From positions 3,411,340 through 3,475,339 of the forward strand of contig OZ253474.1 in assembly GCA_965261695.1 (NCBI GenBank): a stretch of DNA of 64,000 nucleotides. Reading direction: 5' to 3'. Source of the DNA: Caldilineaceae bacterium (lineage in GTDB: Bacteria > Chloroflexota > Anaerolineae > Caldilineales > Caldilineaceae). Every line of letters begins with the position of its first letter. The stretch's first letter is position 1. The notes beneath the pieces were generated by a model, which was not told the origin of the DNA, searched no databases, and saw nothing but the letters and a program-made list of their open reading frames with translations. Below are positions 15,590 through 54,312 of this stretch, in pieces. Position numbers and translations under genes: made by a program.

Positions 15590-16782
15590 GGGTGCATCCC
15601 AAATTTTTGGGGAACGTGCCCCTGCGATCGCGGGCCTCTCGCCCGCAGCCGGTTTCGGCTTCCGCGCCTGTTGAAGAACTGCTCCAATGGGTGACAGATG
15701 CAGGTTGCCTGTCGCCAGAATCGAACCGCAACTCGCCTGATTCTCGTCAACGAAGACGCCGCCTGAGCCGCTGCCATCAACTATCTCCAGCATACTGACT
15801 GCCTGAACCACAGTTCAGACAACTGCTGCGAGTCCTGCCCTTCAGAGCAACTCAGAAACGCTCCCCCATTCTGAGATACACCCTGGAATCTCCAGCAACT
15901 GCAAACGCCCCGCTTTTGTAGTACACTTGTGCGCAAGACGAACGAGCGCAGCCGCGGCCCTGCCGCAACTGCATACCGATTTCAAATGAATGCCATGCCA
16001 TTTTGCCCATCCTGCCCCCTGCGCGCGGGAGCCACGCGCAGCAAACTGCTGCCCTCCCTGCCCAGCCGCTGCTGCAACAACCCGTTGCCCGCCATTCCCG
16101 AAAAAACTATTTTGGGACGAAGAATGACGAGAAATGACGAGAAATGACGAAAAATGACGAAAGAACACGCCCAAACGTGCCCGAACGTATCCGAACACGA
16201 AAAAAAAAAATTGGCGCGACTAAACGCGACTAAACGCGACCAAACGCGACTAAACGCGACTTGGCGCGTTCGCAAACGCTCGCAAACGCTCGCAAACGCT
16301 CGTAACTGCTTGCAAACGCTCGTAAACGCTCGTAACTGCCTACACTGGCACACCTGACCTGCGCGCCCCGCACGTCGCCTGCAAGCGGCCCATAACCCCG
16401 GGCGCAGCCGAAATTCCGCCCCCATTCTTGGATTCATCCGCCCGAGGCGCCGATAGCGGAACTTCAACAGTGTCTCAACGAACGCCACTCTGTGCGTTTT
16501 GTGCGTTTTCAGTACTCAGAGTGATTGCGATGCTGTAAATCGTGGTGCGCGGGCGGATAAAACGCAGCCCAACTGCTCAGCGCCGACGCGCGCTTCCCTT
16601 GCATGGGTGCATCCCAGTTTTTCGTTAAGATGAAAGGGCGTAGACGCGGAGAAGGGGTTGAGAAGACCAAAGGGGATCCCCTGGCGATGCCTGCACTCCG
16701 CACGACTCCGCTCAGTCAAACCTGGCCTCAACTGCTTCAACCGCTTGGCTTTACTCGACGCACAATAATCTGGGATGCACCC
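15590..16782. mobile_element. non-autonomous TIR transposable element, copy 1 (1,193 bp, no conserved ORF)
   Basis: Perfect 12-bp TIRs GGGTGCATCCCA (15590-15601) and TGGGATGCACCC (16771-16782). 8-bp direct target duplication GTCAATTC (15582-15589 and 16783-16790). A second copy elsewhere in the window has a different TSD. Confidence 0.9.
16116..16340. repeat. about 22 consecutive 10-bp-phased short direct repeats (four iteron types) around an A11 run, inside element copy 1
   Basis: 5x GACGA(A/G)(A/G)AAT. 4x C(A/G)(C/T)G(C/T/A)-CC(A/G)AA-type units. A11 at 16200-16210. 5x CGCGAC(T/C)AAA. 7x CGCT-CG(C/T)AA(A/C)-type units. All lie in one 10-bp register. Confidence 0.9.
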
Positions 16783-19345: not shown

Positions 19346-21160
19346 GTGACCGATTCCCCCACCAGAACAATTGCACGGTTTGCAAGTGGGCTGGCGGCGC
19401 TCTGCCTGTTCAGCGCCGTGCTCTTTGTCGCGGCGCAGCGGTTTGACCTGGTAGAGCGTGCCAAAAAGCTACTGCTGAACGTCTCCGCTATCAACCCTTC
19501 TCCCGTCGTGGATCCGTGCGGCCCGGAGTTGAGCGCCGCTGCCATCGTTGCGCGTATCAACTACAGGGACGCCGAGGCACTGCACGCCCTCTTCGACCGC
19601 GTCGACATCTGGCACGTTTATCCCAACCAACAAACGGCTGTGGCGCTGGTGTCACCGGCGGATCAGTCCTGGCTGACCGGTGAAGGCTATCCCTTCTCGG
19701 AGGAAGTGCGGCAGACCGCCGCGCTGCCGGACCCCTGCGCGCTCCAGGCGCAGGCCGACCAGAGCGGCATCCCAGGCTATGCCTGTTATCGCACAGTGAA
19801 GAAGACCTACAGCGATCTGGCCGCGCTAGCCGAGCAATACCCAGAACTGGCCGAATGGAGCGACATCGGCAACAGTTGGTACAAGATCCGCAGTTGGGGT
19901 TTGGCCGGTTACGACATCCAGGCGCTCGTGCTGACGAACAGTCAGCCCACCGACTTTGAGAAGGGTGAGTTGGTGGTGATGGCCGCGGCCCACCCGCGCG
20001 AGTTGGTGACGGCGGAACTCGCTACGCGCTTTGCCGAAAAGCTGCTCGTCGGATATGGAGCGGACCCCGATCTGACGTGGCTGCTCGACTACAACCGCAT
20101 CCACATCATCCCTCAAGCCAATCCCGATGGCCGCAGTTGGGTCGAGGTGGGGCACCTCTGGCGCAAGAATGCGAACAGCACCAATGGCTGCGAATTCCCC
20201 CGCCACGGCGTTGACCTCAATCGCAACGGCAGCTTTCTGTGGAATCACTGTAATGGCTGCTCTTCCGACGATGTCTGTTCGGTCTTCTACCGGGGGCAAA
20301 AGGCGGCGTCCGAACCGGAGACGGGGGCGATTGAAGCCTACCTGCGCGCCGTCTTCCAAGACCAGCGGGGCGAGGGCTACAACGACCCGGCTCCGGAGGA
20401 TACCAACGGCGTTTTCATTTCGCTCCACTCCTTCGGTCGGCTGCTACTCTACCCTTGGGAGCACACGTCCGCGCTGGCGCCGAACCGGGACGCGCTGCGC
20501 CGCCTTGGCCGCAAGCTGGGCTATTCCCCCGGTTACAAGGTCTGCAACGCCGAACTATGCATGTACCGCTTCGACGGCAGCGCGACTGATTACGCCTACG
20601 GCACGCTCGGCGTCGCCTCCTATACCTATGAGATCGGCACTGCGTTCTTCCAGAGCTGCCCCTATTTTGAATCGTCGATCGTCGAACAAAATCTGGACTC
20701 GCTCGTCTATGCGGCCAAGGCGGCCCGGCGCCCTTACCAATTGCCTGCCGGGCCCGACGTGACGGACGCGAGCGTAGATCCGCCGCAGGCATCGCCGGGG
20801 ACGGCGGTCACGTTGTCCGCCACCGCCGATGACACCCGCAGCGCCGGCAGCGGCTCCGACAAGGAACCGGCTCAGCATATCAGCGCAGCCCGCTTCTCGA
20901 TCGACACGCCCTCCTGGCTGACGACCACGTTCGGAACGCTGCAACCGCTGGACGACGCGTTCGATGCCACAGTTGAGTCATTGACAGGGACGCTAGACAC
21001 AACCGATTTGCAACCTGGCGCGCATACCATTTTCCTGGAAGCGCAGGATGCCGACGGCAACTGGGGCCCGCCCACCGCGATATCGGTTGAGGTCGTCCCC
21101 TCCGCAGCGGAGCCGACGCCGACACCGCATAAAATGTATCTGCCGAATGTGTGGCGATAA
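19346..21160 (+). CDS. M14-family zinc carboxypeptidase, secreted or membrane-anchored
   Basis: N-terminal hydrophobic anchor. HPRE zinc motif (AAAHPRELVT), IIPQANPDG, GVDLNRN, FISLHSFG, catalytic YTYEIG. The C-terminal extension ends in a Pro/Thr-rich tail. Confidence 0.85.
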   Translation: MTDSPTRTIARFASGLAALCLFSAVLFVAAQRFDLVERAKKLLLNVSAINPSPVVDPCGPELSAAAIVARINYRDAEALHALFDRVDIWHVYPNQQTAVALVSPADQSWLTGEGYPFSEEVRQTAALPDPCALQAQADQSGIPGYACYRTVKKTYSDLAALAEQYPELAEWSDIGNSWYKIRSWGLAGYDIQALVLTNSQPTDFEKGELVVMAAAHPRELVTAELATRFAEKLLVGYGADPDLTWLLDYNRIHIIPQANPDGRSWVEVGHLWRKNANSTNGCEFPRHGVDLNRNGSFLWNHCNGCSSDDVCSVFYRGQKAASEPETGAIEAYLRAVFQDQRGEGYNDPAPEDTNGVFISLHSFGRLLLYPWEHTSALAPNRDALRRLGRKLGYSPGYKVCNAELCMYRFDGSATDYAYGTLGVASYTYEIGTAFFQSCPYFESSIVEQNLDSLVYAAKAARRPYQLPAGPDVTDASVDPPQASPGTAVTLSATADDTRSAGSGSDKEPAQHISAARFSIDTPSWLTTTFGTLQPLDDAFDATVESLTGTLDTTDLQPGAHTIFLEAQDADGNWGPPTAISVEVVPSAAEPTPTPHKMYLPNVWR

Positions 21161-21205
21161 TGAGGAGAGATCTCTGCCATGCGCCCATTTTTCGGCGGTC
21201 AATTC

Positions 21206-21235
21206 TTAGCCAATCCGATTTTTCCACTGTATAAT
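21206..21235 (+). promoter_or_regulatory. sigma70-like promoter candidate upstream of the heptamer array and ilvE
   Basis: TTAGCC (21206-21211), 18-nt spacer, TATAAT (21230-21235). Hexamer match only. Confidence 0.4.
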
Positions 21236-21279
21236 TCAACCTCGATATACCGGTGCAAAGTGGTTGGCTGCTCTTGTCA

Positions 21280-21657
21280 CCACTGACCACTGACCACTGA
21301 CCACCGACCACCGACCACTGACCACCGACCACCGACCACCGACCACTGACCACTGACCACCGACCACCGACCACTGACCACTGACCACAGGCCACTGACC
21401 ACTGACCACTGACCACTGACCACTGACCACTGACCACTGACCACTGACCACTGACCACTGACCACTGACCACTGACCACCGACCACCGACCACCGACCAC
21501 CGACCACCGACCACCGACCACCGACCACAGGCCACTGACCACTGACCACCGACCACCGACCACCGACCACCGACCACCGACCACCGACCACTGACCACTG
21601 ACCACTGACCACTGACCACTGACCACTGACCACCGACCACTGACCACCGACCACTGC
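21280..21657. repeat. heptanucleotide tandem array, 54 units (30 CCACTGA, 22 CCACCGA, 2 CCACAGG)
   Basis: Counted unit by unit from 21280. Unit order (T=CCACTGA, C=CCACCGA, X=CCACAGG): TTTCCTCCCTTCCTTXTTTTTTTTTTTTCCCCCCCXTTCCCCCCTTTTTTCTCT. The array ends 3 nt before the AAAAGGAG RBS region of ilvE. Confidence 0.97.
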
Positions 21658-21675
21658 AGTAAAAGGAGTGCAGCG

Positions 21676-22599
21676 ATGGCGAAGATGCAAGCGGACTATA
21701 TCTGGATGAACGGGGAGATCATCCCGTGGGAGCAGGCGACGGTGCATGTGTTCACCCATGCGCTGCATTACGGCAGCAGCGCGTTTGAGGGGATTCGCGC
21801 CTACGAAGTAAGCGACGCCCCGGCGATTTTCCGCGGGCCGGAGCATTTCGAGCGGTTGCTCTACTCCTGCAAGGTCGCCCACATTCCATCGCCTCTGAAT
21901 GTAGATGAGTGGATGGATGTGGCGAAAGCCGTCTTGCTCAAGAACGATCATCGCAGCGCCTACATCCGGCCGCTGGTCTTCCGCGGCTACGAGAGCCTGG
22001 GCGTAGACGGGCGTGGCTGTCCGGCGGAGGCCATCCTGGCCTCGGTGCCGTGGGGGCGCTATCTGGGCGCGGAGGCCATCGAGGAAGGCGTGGATGTGCA
22101 GGTGAGCAGCTGGCGGCGCATGGCCTCGAACATGTTCAGCCCGATGGCGAAGATCGGCGGCCAGTACGTCAGCAGCCAGAACATCGTGATGGAAGCCAAG
22201 GACAATGGTTTCACCGAAGGCATTGCGCTGGATGTAAACGGTCAGGTGAGCGAAGGCAGCGGCGAGAACATCTTCGTCATCTATAAGGGCGTGATCTTTA
22301 CGCCGCCTTTGGGCAGCAGTATTCTCGGGGGCATCACCCGCGATGCGGCGATCACGATTGCCAGAGATCTGGGCTACGACCTGCGCGAACAGGCCATGAC
22401 GCGGGAGATGCTCTATCTGGCCGACGAAATCTTCTTCACCGGCACTGCGGCGGAGATCACGCCAGTGCGTTCGGTGGACCGGCTGCCGGTCGGCGACGGC
22501 AAGCGGGGGCCGATCACGCAGTCGATCCAGGGCGTTTTCTTCGGCATCCTCGAAGACAATATGCCGGACAAGTGGGGTTGGCTGACGCAGGTGGCATGA
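21676..22599 (+). CDS. ilvE: branched-chain amino acid aminotransferase
   Basis: 307 aa, fold-type IV aminotransferase pattern: FEGIRAY, YIRPLVF, GENIFV, FFTGTAAEITPVRSVD. RBS AAGGAG. Confidence 0.92.
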   Translation: MAKMQADYIWMNGEIIPWEQATVHVFTHALHYGSSAFEGIRAYEVSDAPAIFRGPEHFERLLYSCKVAHIPSPLNVDEWMDVAKAVLLKNDHRSAYIRPLVFRGYESLGVDGRGCPAEAILASVPWGRYLGAEAIEEGVDVQVSSWRRMASNMFSPMAKIGGQYVSSQNIVMEAKDNGFTEGIALDVNGQVSEGSGENIFVIYKGVIFTPPLGSSILGGITRDAAITIARDLGYDLREQAMTREMLYLADEIFFTGTAAEITPVRSVDRLPVGDGKRGPITQSIQGVFFGILEDNMPDKWGWLTQVA

Positions 22600-53094: not shown

Positions 53095-54312
53095 GGGTGC
53101 ATCCCAAATTTTTGGGGAACGTGCCCCTGCGATCGCGGACCTCTCGCCCGCAGCCGGTTTCGGCTTGCGCGCCTGTTGAAGAACTGCTCCAATGGGTGAC
53201 AGATGCAGGTTGCCTGTCGCCAGAATCGAACCGCAGCTCGCCTGATTCTCGTCAACGAAGACGCCGCCTGAGCCGCTGCCGTCAACTGTCTCCAGCATAC
53301 TGACTGCCTGAACCATAGTTCAGACAACTGCTGCGAGTCCTGCCCTTCAAAGCAACTTAGAAACGCTCCCTCATTCCGAGATGCCCCTGGAATTCCCAGC
53401 AACTGCAAACGCCCCGCTTTTGTAGTACACTTGTGCGCAAGACGAACGAGCGCAGCCGCGGCCATGCCGCAACTGCATACCGATTTCAAATGAATACCAT
53501 GCCATTTTGCCCATCCTGCCCCCGGCGCGGGGGAGCCACGCGCAGCAAACTGCTGCCCTCCCTGCCCAGCCGCTGCCGCAACAACCCGTTGCCCGCCATT
53601 CCCGAAAAAGCCATTTTGGGACGAAGAATGACGAAGAATGACGAGAAATGACGAAAAATGACGAAAGAACACGCCCAAACGTGCCCGAACGTGTCCGAAC
53701 AAAAAAAAAATTGGCGCGACTAAACGCGACCAAACGCGACTAAACGCAACTAAACGCGACCTGGCGCGCTCGAACACGCTCGCAAACGCTCGTAACTGCA
53801 GGCAAACGCTCGTAACTGCAGGCAAACGCTCGTAACTGCAGGCAAACGCTCGTAAACGCTCGTAACTGCCTACATGGCACAGCTGACCTGCGCGCCCCGC
53901 ACGTCGCCTGCAAGCGGCCCGTAAGCCCGGGCGCAGCCGAAATTCCGCCCCCCATTCTTGGCTTCACCCGCGCGAGGCGCCGATACTGGAACTTCAACAG
54001 TGTCTCAACGAACGCCAATCTGTGCGTTTTGTGCGTTTTCAGTACTCAGAGTGATTGCGATGCTGTAAATCGTGGTGCGCGGGCGGAAAAAACGCAGCCC
54101 AACTGCTCAGCGCCGACGCGCGCTTCCCTTGCATGGGTGCATCCCAGTTTTTCGTTAAGATGAAAGGGGGTAGACGAGGAGAGGGGAATGAGAAGACCAA
54201 AGGGGATCCCCTGGCGATGCCTGCACTCCGCACGACTCCGCGCAGTCATACCTGGCCTCAACTGCTTCAACCGCTTGGCTTTACTCGACGCACAATAATC
54301 TGGGATGCACCC
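53095..54312. mobile_element. non-autonomous TIR transposable element, copy 2 (1,218 bp)
   Basis: Same 12-bp TIRs (53095-53106 and 54301-54312) and same orientation as copy 1. Its own 8-bp target duplication is AAATGAAC (53087-53094 and 54313-54320). Confidence 0.9.
53620..53870. repeat. 10-bp-phased iteron/A-tract core of element copy 2
   Basis: Same four iteron types as copy 1 around an A10 run (53701-53710). The last array is expanded by 3 copies of the 20-bp unit CAAACGCTCGTAACTGCAGG. A 3-4 nt deletion next to the A-run shifts the register between the two halves. Confidence 0.9.

What the first reader, a model, noticed from the sequence alone, without database searches (positions are those of the whole stretch)
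21206..21675. 378-bp two-variant heptanucleotide array (54 units) occupying the whole ilvE leader
Units of CCACTGA (30), CCACCGA (22) and CCACAGG (2) run without interruption from 21280 to 21657. The order is TTTCCTCCCTTCCTTXTTTTTTTTTTTTCCCCCCCXTTCCCCCCTTTTTTCTCT, so the two variants occur in homogeneous blocks (T12, C7, C6, T6), as expected from local expansion. The array lies between a promoter-like TTAGCC-18-TATAAT (21206-21235) and the ilvE RBS (AAGGAG, ATG 21676). If that promoter is used, the array is transcribed as a C/A-rich 5' UTR with little self-complementarity. The complementary strand has GG every 7 nt. Seven is not a multiple of three, so all three frames read GQWSVVS-type peptides, which generates the fake 134-483 aa ORFs in the track. 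It resembles the cyanobacterial STRR heptamers in form, but I do not recognise this unit. Possible roles are a protein or sRNA binding platform, length-dependent tuning of ilvE expression, or a recombination hotspot.
Basis: partly seen in the sequence, partly recalled or inferred. Interest (0 to 1): 0.62.

Follow-up and report, generated by a model that had tools for sequence, protein, structure and literature searches.

The report
Expanded heptamer repeat in ilvE leader
A sponge-symbiont Caldilineaceae bacterium carries 54 copies of a 7-base repeat inside the transcribed leader of its ilvE gene; this is a recent, strain-variable expansion of a repeat family found only in its genus, which sits C-rich-strand-forward just before start codons and also flanks small "IVS-protein" genes, a kind of element seen in other phyla but still unexplained.

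Summary
The array is real: 378 bp, 54 heptamers at 21280-21657. It breaks down as 29 CCACTGA, 22 CCACCGA, 2 CCACAGG and a terminal CCACTGC, with the variants clustered in blocks (P=0.0007). It lies between a promoter-like block conserved in 30 of 31 genus relatives and the ilvE RBS. Metatranscriptome contigs run from the array into ilvE. One contig spans the whole leader of an 11-unit allele, so the array is transcribed and its length varies between strains.

It is not specific to ilvE. The genome holds about 100 period-7 loci, 38 of them CCAC-type. Fourteen of those 38 end within 25 nt upstream of a same-strand start codon (null expectation 1.2) and none does so in antisense. (CCACYGA)x4 occurs in 25 of 35 other genomes of the genus and in 0 of 25 outside it.

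The closest relatives have only 3-4 units at the same place, where they form the 3' arm of a leader hairpin. PF05635 (23S-rRNA-IVS/Avd-like) genes in this genus are flanked by the same heptamers.

Best reading: this is the slippage-expanded C-rich arm of a heptamer-armed hairpin element, tolerated as an unstructured, rut-like 5' UTR. Its effect on expression is untested. It is a new variant of a known but unexplained kind (TAACTGA, GGGNATC/STRR and hmw repeats).

The parts
21200..21238 (+). Conserved promoter-like block (caaTTCTTAGCCaatccgatttttccacTGTATAATtca). It holds the -35-like TTAGCC/TAGCCA and the -10-like TATAAT (21230-21235).
   Evidence: The scan finds TAGCCA-17-TATAAT, the only site in 20900-21800. 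TCTTAGCC-N18-TATAAT is present in 30 of 31 genus relatives, while the surrounding sequence diverges. Caveat: an RNA contig begins at 21227.
21239..21279 (+). Unique 5' part of the leader. It includes a degenerate G-rich arm (CCGGTGCAAAGTGGTTGG, about 21250-21267) that is complementary to CCGACCACU-type units.
   Evidence: The predicted fold pairs this segment with the first array units. In the type-B relatives the homologous CGGTG..CGGTGGyT segment pairs with gACCACCG..CACCG.
21280..21657 (+). 54-unit heptamer array with order TTTCCTCCCTTCCTTXTTTTTTTTTTTTCCCCCCCXTTCCCCCCTTTTTTCTC plus CCACTGC. It is the expanded C-rich arm. Composition is C 49%, G 15%, with TGA in all three frames of the T units.
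   Evidence: It is transcribed. It is polymorphic, with an 11-unit allele in RNA run X44 and unit 7 = CCACAGG in DNA runs X4 and X9.
21658..21675 (+). Short unique spacer carrying the Shine-Dalgarno AAGGAG (21663-21668). CTGCA/TGCAG can form a 5-bp hairpin that displays the SD.
   Evidence: The AAGGAG-N7-ATG arrangement is conserved in all close relatives.
21676..22599 (+). ilvE-like branched-chain amino-acid aminotransferase gene (307 aa).
   Evidence: PF01063 E=3.1e-44. Orthologues with 93-96% identity occur in 31 Caldilineaceae MAGs.

Best explanation
The array is a recent, strain-variable expansion of a 3-4-unit heptamer seed, probably by replication slippage or unequal exchange. The seed forms the C-rich 3' arm of a small hairpin element in the ilvE 5' UTR of this sub-lineage. 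That hairpin belongs to a family of CCACYGA-type heptamer repeats restricted to this genus. In sponge-symbiont Caldilineaceae these repeats sit with the C-rich strand in mRNA sense directly upstream of start codons, and they also form the arms around PF05635 (23S-rRNA-IVS/Avd-like) genes.

Shown: the array is real. It lies downstream of a conserved promoter-like block. It is contained in the ilvE transcript. It is unstructured and C-rich/G-poor. It differs in length and order between strains. The orientation and position rule holds genome-wide.

Inferred: the expansion mechanism. Also inferred is that the C-rich-sense orientation persists because it is the harmless one, giving no G-rich RNA, no R-loop or G4, and no pairing with the SD. 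Finally, I infer that at ilvE the array acts only as a long spacer. Its main plausible effect would be a length-dependent lowering or tuning of ilvE expression, for example through Rho loading on a rut-like untranslated RNA, rather than a dedicated regulatory device.
For: The array and its block structure are established. The promoter-like block is conserved in 30 of 31 relatives. Its -10 end lies 87-113 nt from the ATG in relatives and 440 nt in the window, so the difference equals the array. Relatives L019, L021, L026, L027 and L028 carry 3-4 degenerate CCACCGA units at the same place, and other species carry none there. Those type-B leaders fold into a hairpin whose 3' arm is the heptamers.

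RNA evidence: 139-nt contigs (depth 40-52) in three metatranscriptomes span 21616-21749, while depth is zero on 20900-21278, so this is not DNA carry-over. A 187-nt RNA contig in X44 joins 21227..left flank..an 11-unit array..the ilvE start. DNA contigs from four hosts cross the left junction, and in X4 and X9 unit 7 differs from the window.

Genome-wide: there are 38 CCAC-type loci. Fourteen end within 25 nt upstream of a same-strand start, against a null of 1.16 (maximum 6 in 2000 trials), and none does so in antisense. (CCACYGA)x4 is found in 25 of 35 same-genus genomes and in 0 of 25 outside the genus. A second giant array (96 units) also has only a short degenerate seed (about 4-5 CCAC-type units, no run of 3 or more) in its nearest relative and none in the other relatives that could be read (13 of 29).

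PF05635 link: in this genome two tandem PF05635 genes are each followed by CCACYGR/CAACTRR arrays. In the genus, 12 of 26 PF05635 loci have a period-7 array within 250 nt, against 0 of 27 control loci (P=4e-5). Genomes with PF05635 have more arrays, median 11 against 0 (P=0.015).

RNA properties: the array RNA is unpaired in the centroid fold, with C 49%, G 15% and 76 YC dimers, and Rho is encoded in the genome.
Against: There is no direct measurement of array length from reads. The X44 RNA contig starts at 21227 and a relative's RNA contig starts about 136 nt before its ATG. Both lie upstream of the TATAAT, so the transcription start and the role of the conserved block are unsettled. Only about 6-9 of the 38 CCAC loci have a recognisable upstream G-rich partner, and the long arrays have none. 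The window's own 5' arm is only about 9 bp with G-U pairs. So 'hairpin arm' is an inference from relatives. The PF05635 link is a correlation, and the nearest PF05635 gene is about 100 kb from ilvE. Gene positions genome-wide come from my own crude ORF caller, and start codons were checked only by eye for canonical N-termini. A strong bias for the sense orientation next to start codons could also mean positive selection for a function, which this explanation does not require.
Confidence: 0.68

Rival explanations
1. Length-tunable Rho-dependent attenuator. The untranslated, unstructured, C-rich/G-poor array would be a giant Rho-loading (rut) site. More units would give more premature termination before or within ilvE, making the locus a graded 'contingency' switch analogous to the hmw1A heptamer SSR.
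For: C is 49% and G 15%, with 76 YC dimers over 378 nt, and the centroid fold is unpaired. An intact rho gene is present. Length polymorphism of 11 against 54 units exists. The leader-CDS junction contig has a higher depth (40-52) than the next CDS contig (10.6-13.7) in three RNA runs, though contig depth is a poor measure. For hmw1A, expression is inversely proportional to the number of heptamers in the 5' UTR (PMC12721329).
Against: No termination data exist. If C-rich leaders caused harmful termination, one would expect selection against the very orientation that is favoured genome-wide. ilvE is a housekeeping gene, not a typical contingency gene. Arrays precede genes of unrelated functions.
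Confidence: 0.2
2. Ribosome or RNA-binding-protein landing pad. The heptamers would be recognised by S1, a Csp-like protein or the PF05635 protein, and would promote or regulate translation initiation, as proposed for the TAACTGA repeats.
For: Arrays abut start codons in sense orientation, and 10 of about 15 such loci have no SD between the array and the ATG. The same geometry is described for TAACTGA (PMC4679880). CCACTG is enriched 2.1-fold at -30..-1 and its complement is depleted.
Against: ilvE keeps its own consensus AAGGAG-N7-ATG. The SD-less fraction next to arrays (about 67%) is close to the genome-wide crude value of 61%. The 16S rRNA has no complement to the unit. Arrays are not conserved at orthologous genes. 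Fifty-four units are far more than any landing pad would need.
Confidence: 0.12
3. An ordinary microsatellite with no link to hairpin elements or PF05635. A chance CCACCGA duplication slipped and grew, and the genome-wide pattern only reflects where such repeats are tolerated.
For: Long arrays lack an inverted partner. Variant blocks fit slippage. From general knowledge, 7-nt loops escape mismatch repair.
Against: The seed in relatives is one arm of a conserved hairpin. Inverted partners, when present, are always 5' and never 3'. PF05635 genes are strongly enriched for flanking heptamer arrays with the same units. The family is restricted to one genus although the base composition is shared with neighbours.
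Confidence: 0.2
4. A non-B DNA element. GG every 7 nt on the minus strand would form G-quadruplexes or i-motifs that control transcription or replication.
For: There is a regular GG spacing. The GGGNATC heptamers of Xanthomonas and Nostoc form G4s and show the same strand rule (PMC4692102).
Against: The tracts are only two guanines with 5-nt loops, so at best two-tetrad G4s could form, and these are weak at physiological conditions (general knowledge). This was not tested here.
Confidence: 0.05
5. Assembly artefact.
For: None found. Only the exact copy number rests on one assembly.
Against: Independent DNA and RNA runs cross both junctions. Comparable arrays occur in other single-contig genomes of the genus.
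Confidence: 0.02

Closest known systems
TAACTGA direct heptamer repeats of marine Beggiatoaceae, some Cyanobacteria and Bacteroidetes (MacGregor 2015, PMC4679880)
   Same: Tandem 7-nt units, mostly intergenic, in 'forward' orientation within a few nt of start codons and often without an SD. They precede genes of unrelated function, their taxonomic distribution is patchy, and their function is unknown. The unit shares ACTGA with CCACTGA.
   Different: The unit is different, and TAACTGA direct repeats are absent here. The phylum is different (Chloroflexota). Beggiatoaceae sets have 2-6 copies (up to 43 elsewhere), against 54-98 here. The ilvE copy sits upstream of a good SD. No PF05635 or hairpin link was described for TAACTGA.
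GGGNATC / STRR-type heptamer repeats of Xanthomonas and Nostoc (Rehm et al. 2015, PMC4692102; STRR of heterocystous cyanobacteria, from general knowledge)
   Same: Abundant heptamer SSRs that are over-represented between genes and transcribed. The G-rich strand is antisense within 50 bp upstream of ORFs, so the C-rich strand is in sense, and they are not linked to surface or contingency genes.
   Different: Those units carry G3-4 tracts and form G4s, with a preference for four units. Here the tracts are only GG, the copy numbers are far higher, and the units differ (0-1 direct dimers of STRR or GGGNATC units).
Haemophilus influenzae hmw1A/hmw2A (ATCTTTC)n 5'-UTR repeat (PMC12721329, PMC8262952)
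   Same: A heptamer SSR transcribed inside a 5' UTR, with copy number varying between strains. The repeats pair with a G-rich segment of the same leader, and this is the only case with a tested mechanism (length-dependent expression, RNase III processing).
   Different: It concerns a single adhesin locus in a pathogen, the repeat is the left arm, and arrays have about 11-30 units. No genome-wide family is involved. Here nothing about expression or RNase III has been tested.
ORF-bearing intervening sequences of 23S rRNA (S23p/PF05635; Coxiella, Leptospira; PMC4990558) and the Avd-like PF05635 family (PMC10053308)
   Same: A small four-helix-bundle gene is bracketed by complementary arms that can form a stem. 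In this genus the arms are built from the same heptamers as the ilvE array.
   Different: The cassettes here lie between protein-coding genes, not in rRNA. The ilvE locus carries no ORF. RNase III excision is untested, and heptamer-built arms are not described in the papers I could search.

Membership tests
TAACTGA direct-repeat family (MacGregor 2015) | The unit is TAACTGA in direct repeats | tested here: not met
   There are 0 TAACTGA dimers on either strand of the genome. The unit here is CCACTGA/CCACCGA.
TAACTGA direct-repeat family (MacGregor 2015) | Forward orientation, ending within a few nt upstream of a start codon | tested here: met
   Fourteen of 38 CCAC loci end within 25 nt upstream of a same-strand start (null 1.16) and 0 in antisense. 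The ilvE array ends 18 nt before the ATG.
TAACTGA direct-repeat family (MacGregor 2015) | The repeat replaces a recognisable Shine-Dalgarno site | tested here: not met
   ilvE has AAGGAG 7 nt before the ATG. Genome-wide, about 10 of 15 array-abutted starts lack an SD, similar to the background.
Cyanobacterial STRR / GGGNATC G4 repeats | Unit sequences CCCCA(A/G)T, GGGGA(C/T)T or GGGAATC, with G3+ tracts able to form G4 | tested here: not met
   There are 0-1 direct dimers of these units. The array's complement has only GG tracts.
Cyanobacterial STRR / GGGNATC G4 repeats | Intergenic, transcribed, with the G-rich strand antisense just upstream of ORFs | tested here: met
Phase-variable 5'-UTR SSR (hmw1A type) | The SSR lies inside the transcribed 5' UTR | tested here: met
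   RNA contigs cover array plus ilvE and the left flank plus array plus ilvE.
Phase-variable 5'-UTR SSR (hmw1A type) | Copy number varies among closely related strains | tested here: met
   There are 54 units in the window, 11 units in the X44 RNA contig, a different unit order in X4 and X9, and 3-4 units in sister species.
Phase-variable 5'-UTR SSR (hmw1A type) | Expression depends on copy number; RNase III processes a repeat/G-rich hairpin | not testable with these tools
   Only a weak 5' arm is predicted. No expression or cleavage data are available.
PF05635 / IVS-like heptamer-armed cassette | Two inverted arms able to form a stem | tested here: inconclusive
   The stem is clear in the type-B relatives. 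In the window the 5' arm is degenerate at about 9 bp. Only 6-9 of 38 loci in the genome have a partner.
PF05635 / IVS-like heptamer-armed cassette | Carries a PF05635 ORF between the arms | tested here: not met
   There is no ORF in the ilvE leader. PF05635 genes with CCACYGR arms lie elsewhere, at G000 3329302-3330089.
PF05635 / IVS-like heptamer-armed cassette | Inserted in 23S rRNA and excised by RNase III | tested here: not met
   The locus lies between protein-coding genes. Excision was not testable.
Rho utilisation (rut) site | At least 70-80 nt of untranslated, unstructured, C-rich and G-poor RNA in an organism that has Rho | tested here: met
   TGA occurs in all frames of the T units.
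Rho utilisation (rut) site | Rho-dependent termination downstream | not testable with these tools
   No 3'-end data are available.

The most novel reading that the evidence does not exclude
CCACYGA arrays, and by extension the TAACTGA, STRR and other 'heptamer leaders' of several phyla, are the arms of one widespread class of self-propagating hairpin cassettes. Their autonomous copies would encode the pentameric Avd-like PF05635 protein. The protein, or the stem it helps form, would decide how the flanking mRNA is processed (RNase III), terminated (Rho) or translated. Arm length would then be a heritable, fast-mutating dial on the expression of whatever gene lies downstream, here ilvE.
Probability: 0.18. 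Interest if true: 0.8.

Novelty: new variant of a known kind. Interest (0 to 1): 0.5.

Why it matters
Heptamer repeats that sit C-rich-strand-forward just before start codons have been reported in Beggiatoaceae, cyanobacteria, Bacteroidetes and Xanthomonas for decades without an accepted function. This locus adds a fourth setting: Chloroflexota that live as obligate sponge symbionts. It offers unusually clean comparative material. The promoter is conserved. The allelic series runs 0, 3-4, 11 and 54 units in front of the same housekeeping gene. There is RNA evidence that the repeat is in the mRNA. There is also a statistical tie to PF05635/IVS-type genes, which the papers I could search do not describe. 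Together these make the open questions directly testable with reporter constructs and recombinant Rho, RNase III and PF05635. The questions are whether these repeats are junk, hairpin-element arms, Rho or RNase III targets, or ribosome landing pads. On the practical side, the arrays generate long false ORFs and break short-read assemblies of these symbiont genomes.

Tried and rejected
(1) I tried to lay reads across the whole array to measure allele lengths.

(2) rRNA-pairing enhancer: the 16S rRNA holds no UCAGUGG, UCGGUGG or CAGUGG. Rejected.

(3) Replication-strand explanation of orientation: there is no usable GC-skew pattern and no gene-strand bias. With dnaA and the rRNA operons placing the origin near 2.82 Mb, arrays are co-oriented 25:13, which is weaker than the gene-strand rule. 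It is not the main cause.

(4) Known RNA families in the ilvE leaders of relatives: no Rfam match at E<=1.

(5) Membership in the TAACTGA, STRR or GGGNATC families by unit: not met.

(6) Translation of the array: the T units put TGA in all three plus-strand frames, and the minus-strand ORFs are artefacts.

(7) Conservation of arrays at orthologous genes: tested at ilvE and at the 96-unit locus, and not conserved.

(8) A universal upstream inverted partner for every array: found for a minority only.

(9) The recurring hairpin motif GGGCGGTCGGGCCTATTCGGCCCTCCC next to arrays in another genome of the genus is essentially absent from this genome.

(10) Literature search for the exact repeat returned nothing.
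Full report
**1. The observation.** Window 21280-21657 is an uninterrupted run of 54 heptamers. Tandem Repeats Finder reports period 7, 54.0 copies and 94% matches. The T and C variants are clustered: 18 runs against 29.3 expected (P=0.0007), with a longest run of 12 (P=0.006). This is what local duplication or slippage produces.

The ORF at 21676-22599 is a class IV aminotransferase (PF01063, E=3e-44), preceded by AAGGAG. The upstream gene, 19346-21160, is an M14 carboxypeptidase. The three long minus-strand ORFs through the array (134, 255 and 483 aa) are artefacts of an open repeat frame. On the plus strand, every T unit contributes a TGA to each frame in turn.

**2. Organism and locus history.** The window lies in a single-contig 5.61-Mb, 60% GC genome. 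IlvE relatives are MAGs of Caldilineaceae (Chloroflexota), many of them from marine sponges. The 31 closest are 93-96% identical in protein sequence.

In 30 of these 31, the block TCTTAGCC-N18-TATAAT lies upstream of ilvE, with the TATAAT ending 87-113 nt before the ATG. In the window the same block is present (TCTTAGCCAATCCGATTTTTCCACTGTATAAT) but ends 440 nt before the ATG. A consensus scan finds it as the only promoter-like site in 20900-21800. The extra length is therefore the array.

Two leader types follow the block.
- Most species have a 111-113-nt leader with two conserved hairpins and no repeat. It has no Rfam match, and two of its base pairs show compensatory changes.
- The window groups with L019, L021, L026, L027 and L028. 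Their 95-98-nt leaders contain 3-4 degenerate units (TGACCACCGACCACCGATCACCGAC) at exactly the position of the array. In those five species the units form the 3' arm of a long hairpin whose 5' arm is CGGTG..CGGTGGyT.

The window keeps a degenerate 5' arm (CCGGTGCAAAGTGGTTGG), which is predicted to pair with the first array units. Other species (L003, L007, L016, L022, L023, L029, L031) have short CCACTGA or CCACTAT runs on the other side, upstream of the promoter block. The intergenic region is thus a hot spot, but no array is conserved.

**3. Is it transcribed, and is it variable?** Many public runs from at least ten host species hold the locus.

In three metatranscriptomes (X25-X27), a 139-nt contig at depth 40-52 runs from 21616 (six units inside the array) to 21749 in ilvE. 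There is no RNA contig at all on 20900-21278, so the signal is not DNA carry-over or read-through from the peptidase gene.

In a fourth metatranscriptome (X44), one 187-nt contig joins the following pieces: 21227-21325, then AGG, then three CCACTGA units, then CCAC, then TGCAGTAAAAGGAGTGCAGCGATGGCGAAG and onward to 21714. This is a complete leader with an 11-unit array (TTTCCT-X-TTT-CCACTGC). Every junction in it is covered by a single 31-mer, so it cannot be a collapsed 54-unit array. It is a shorter allele.

DNA contigs from four different hosts cross the left junction. In X4 and X9 unit 7 is CCACAGG, not CCACCGA as in the window. Right-junction contigs show C>T at 21648.

The array is therefore real, inside the ilvE mRNA, and polymorphic in length and order. 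I could not measure the length in DNA reads: the tool refuses the array core and k=31 contigs break in perfect runs.

One point is unresolved. The X44 contig begins at 21227, 3 nt upstream of the TATAAT, and a relative's leader contig in X28 begins about 136 nt before its ATG. Either some transcription starts upstream of the predicted -10, or the conserved block is more than a promoter. In relatives it contains an AATCT-N9-AGATT palindrome.

**4. The family.** Genome-wide there are 55 period-7 arrays at the default TRF score and about 100 loci at a laxer threshold. CCACTGA and CCACCGA dominate. Thirty-eight loci are CCAC-type (units CCACTGA, CCACCGA, CCACTAG, CCACTGG, CCACTAA, CCACTAT). They include arrays of 693 bp (96-98 units), 319 bp, 246 bp and 210 bp.

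I used my own codon-usage ORF caller (4246 genes). With it, 14 of the 38 loci end within 25 nt upstream of a start codon on the same strand, meaning the C-rich strand is the mRNA strand. Random placement in non-coding DNA gives 1.16, with a maximum of 6 in 2000 trials. No locus sits within 25 nt of a start in antisense.

Several of these starts are verified by canonical N-termini: Rossmann folds at residues 3-15, and TsaB-like and PsuG-like termini. The repeat often runs to within 0-10 nt of the ATG with no SD, for example CCACTGGTgtATG, CCACTACATG, CCACTGATG and CCACTGGggtcaacctATG. Downstream genes have unrelated functions. The same geometry appears in other genomes of the genus. One example is L100, with TATAAT, then 12 nt, a 112-nt array, 16 nt and the ATG.

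Neither replication direction nor gene-strand bias explains the orientation. There is no usable skew and the gene strands are about 50:50. dnaA lies at 2.83 Mb, and co-orientation is only 25:13.

(CCACYGA)x4 occurs in 25 of 35 other genomes of the same genus and in 0 of 25 genomes of other genera of the family and class. The second giant array (96 units, before a serine-hydrolase gene) has only a short degenerate seed (about 4-5 CCAC-type units, no run of 3 or more) in the closest species (90% protein identity) and none in the other relatives I could read, 13 of the 29. So large expansions are recent and lineage-specific.

**5. Link to hairpins and PF05635.** Earlier notes of this scan on other genomes suggested that such 'heptamer leaders' are the downstream arms of palindromic cassettes, some of which carry a PF05635 gene. 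I tested that lead here.
- Inverted G-rich partners of at least 8 nt exist upstream of only about 6 of the 38 loci, and never downstream. The long arrays have none.
- The genome has two intact tandem PF05635 genes (3329302-3329619 and 3329772-3330089, minus strand). Each is followed directly after its stop codon by a C-rich CCACYGR/CAACTRR array, with a G-rich arm upstream. The last array abuts the SD and ATG of the next gene.
- PF05635 occurs in 29 of 36 genomes of the genus. Fifteen of the 29 fetched loci that could be read have 2-21 GTGG heptamers within 200 nt upstream of the gene. Others are bracketed by other inverted heptamer pairs: GTGGATA..CCACTAT, and GAGGAGT..ACTCCTC. By a unit-blind detector, 12 of 26 PF05635 loci have a period-7 array within 250 nt, against 0 of 27 control loci (P=4e-5). 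Genomes with PF05635 have more CCACYGA matches, median 11 against 0 (P=0.015, rho=0.39).

The motif gaactgcaGTGG next to these genes is the reverse complement of CCACTGCAGTTC, which closes many C-rich arrays, including ilvE's (CCACTGCAGTaaaagg). PF05635 is the '23S rRNA intervening-sequence protein' family and resembles the DGR accessory protein Avd (PMC10053308, PMC4990558). The tie is correlative, and the ilvE locus itself has no ORF.

**6. How it most likely works.**

*Shown:* the array is a transcribed, polymorphic, unstructured, C-rich/G-poor insert in the ilvE 5' UTR. Its composition is C 49%, G 15%, A 28% and U 8%, with 76 YC dimers. The centroid fold leaves it unpaired, with MFE z=-1.7.

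*Inferred:*
- It grew by slipped-strand mispairing or unequal exchange from the 3' arm of a small hairpin element. From general knowledge, 7-nt loops are not corrected by MutS.
- The favoured orientation is the one that gives a G-poor transcript and so avoids G-rich RNA, R-loops and sequestration of the SD.
- At ilvE it is mainly a tolerated spacer.

The organism encodes Rho, and the array is a textbook rut-like sequence in untranslated RNA. The most concrete functional consequence I can propose is therefore length-dependent premature termination, or altered mRNA processing if the G-rich arm and the repeats form an RNase III substrate as in hmw1A (PMC12721329). A role as a ribosome landing pad is unlikely for ilvE, which keeps a consensus SD. 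The 16S rRNA has no complement to the unit.

**7. Comparison with what is known.** The geometry is forward orientation, a few nt before start codons, often without an SD, in front of unrelated genes, with a patchy phylogenetic distribution. It matches the TAACTGA repeats of Beggiatoaceae, cyanobacteria and Bacteroidetes (PMC4679880). The strand rule matches the GGGNATC heptamers of Xanthomonas and Nostoc (PMC4692102). Membership by unit fails for all of these families.

New here are the phylum, the unit, the extreme copy numbers, the allelic series in front of one housekeeping gene behind a conserved promoter, and the PF05635 association. I rate it a new variant of a known but unexplained kind.

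Noticed in passing
L001-L017, L020, L022-L025, L029-L031, about 115 nt upstream of ilvE (match start about 3001 in most loci): Most species of the genus have a different ilvE leader, 111-113 nt long, with two conserved hairpins (GCAGGC..GCCTGC and GCCGGTTGGC..GCCAAyCrGGC). Two of its base pairs show compensatory changes and it has no Rfam match. It may be an undescribed cis-regulatory RNA for branched-chain amino-acid metabolism.
   Followed up: partly
window 21200-21238 and the homologous block in L001-L031: The conserved promoter-like block contains an inverted repeat (AATCT-N9-AGATT in relatives) overlapping the -35 and the spacer, which looks like an operator. The spacer is far more conserved than a plain promoter spacer would need to be.
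   Followed up: no
window 21227: An RNA contig (X44, depth 8.4) starts 3 nt upstream of the TATAAT box. A relative's leader contig (X28) starts about 136 nt before its ATG. The real transcription start may therefore lie upstream of the predicted one.
   Followed up: partly
G000 C1:3329100-3330200 (outside the window, about 100 kb upstream): Two identical tandem PF05635 (23S rRNA IVS / Avd-like) genes are each followed by a C-rich heptamer array and preceded by a G-rich arm. They fill the gap between an upstream gene's stop and the SD of a Gfo/Idh/MocA gene. The orthologous site in another species (L148) has one such cassette.
   Followed up: partly
G000 whole chromosome: All 38 CCAC-type loci lie between 1.48 and 5.15 Mb, around dnaA (2.83 Mb) and the two rRNA operons (2.81 and 3.04 Mb). 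None lies in the roughly 1.9 Mb opposite, which is presumably the terminus-proximal region.
   Followed up: partly
G000 C1:3749684-3750376, C1:2543690-2544259 and C1:2476785-2477103: There are other giant arrays. One has 96-98 CCACCGA units before a serine-hydrolase gene. One has 81 CTGGCAA units. One has about 46 CCACTGA units ending 6 nt before a yqeC/mobA-like gene.
   Followed up: partly
L081, L082, L084, L085 (G021) and L136 (G028): In other genomes of the genus, C-rich arrays are followed by a recurring module, CCACTGCAGTTCCGGGCGGTCGGGCCTATTCGGCCCTCCC. Its reverse complement precedes a PF05635 gene in L136. This suggests modular composite elements. The module is nearly absent from this genome.
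   Followed up: no
window 16116-16339 and 53620-53865; 257 period-10 arrays genome-wide: Decamer minisatellites are very abundant. I did not re-check this.
   Followed up: no
runs X2, X9, X25-27: 31-mers of pure heptamer repeat are hundreds to thousands of times deeper than the single-copy flank in sponge metagenomes and metatranscriptomes. The family is therefore very abundant across the whole symbiont community, and possibly in other organisms in the samples.
   Followed up: no
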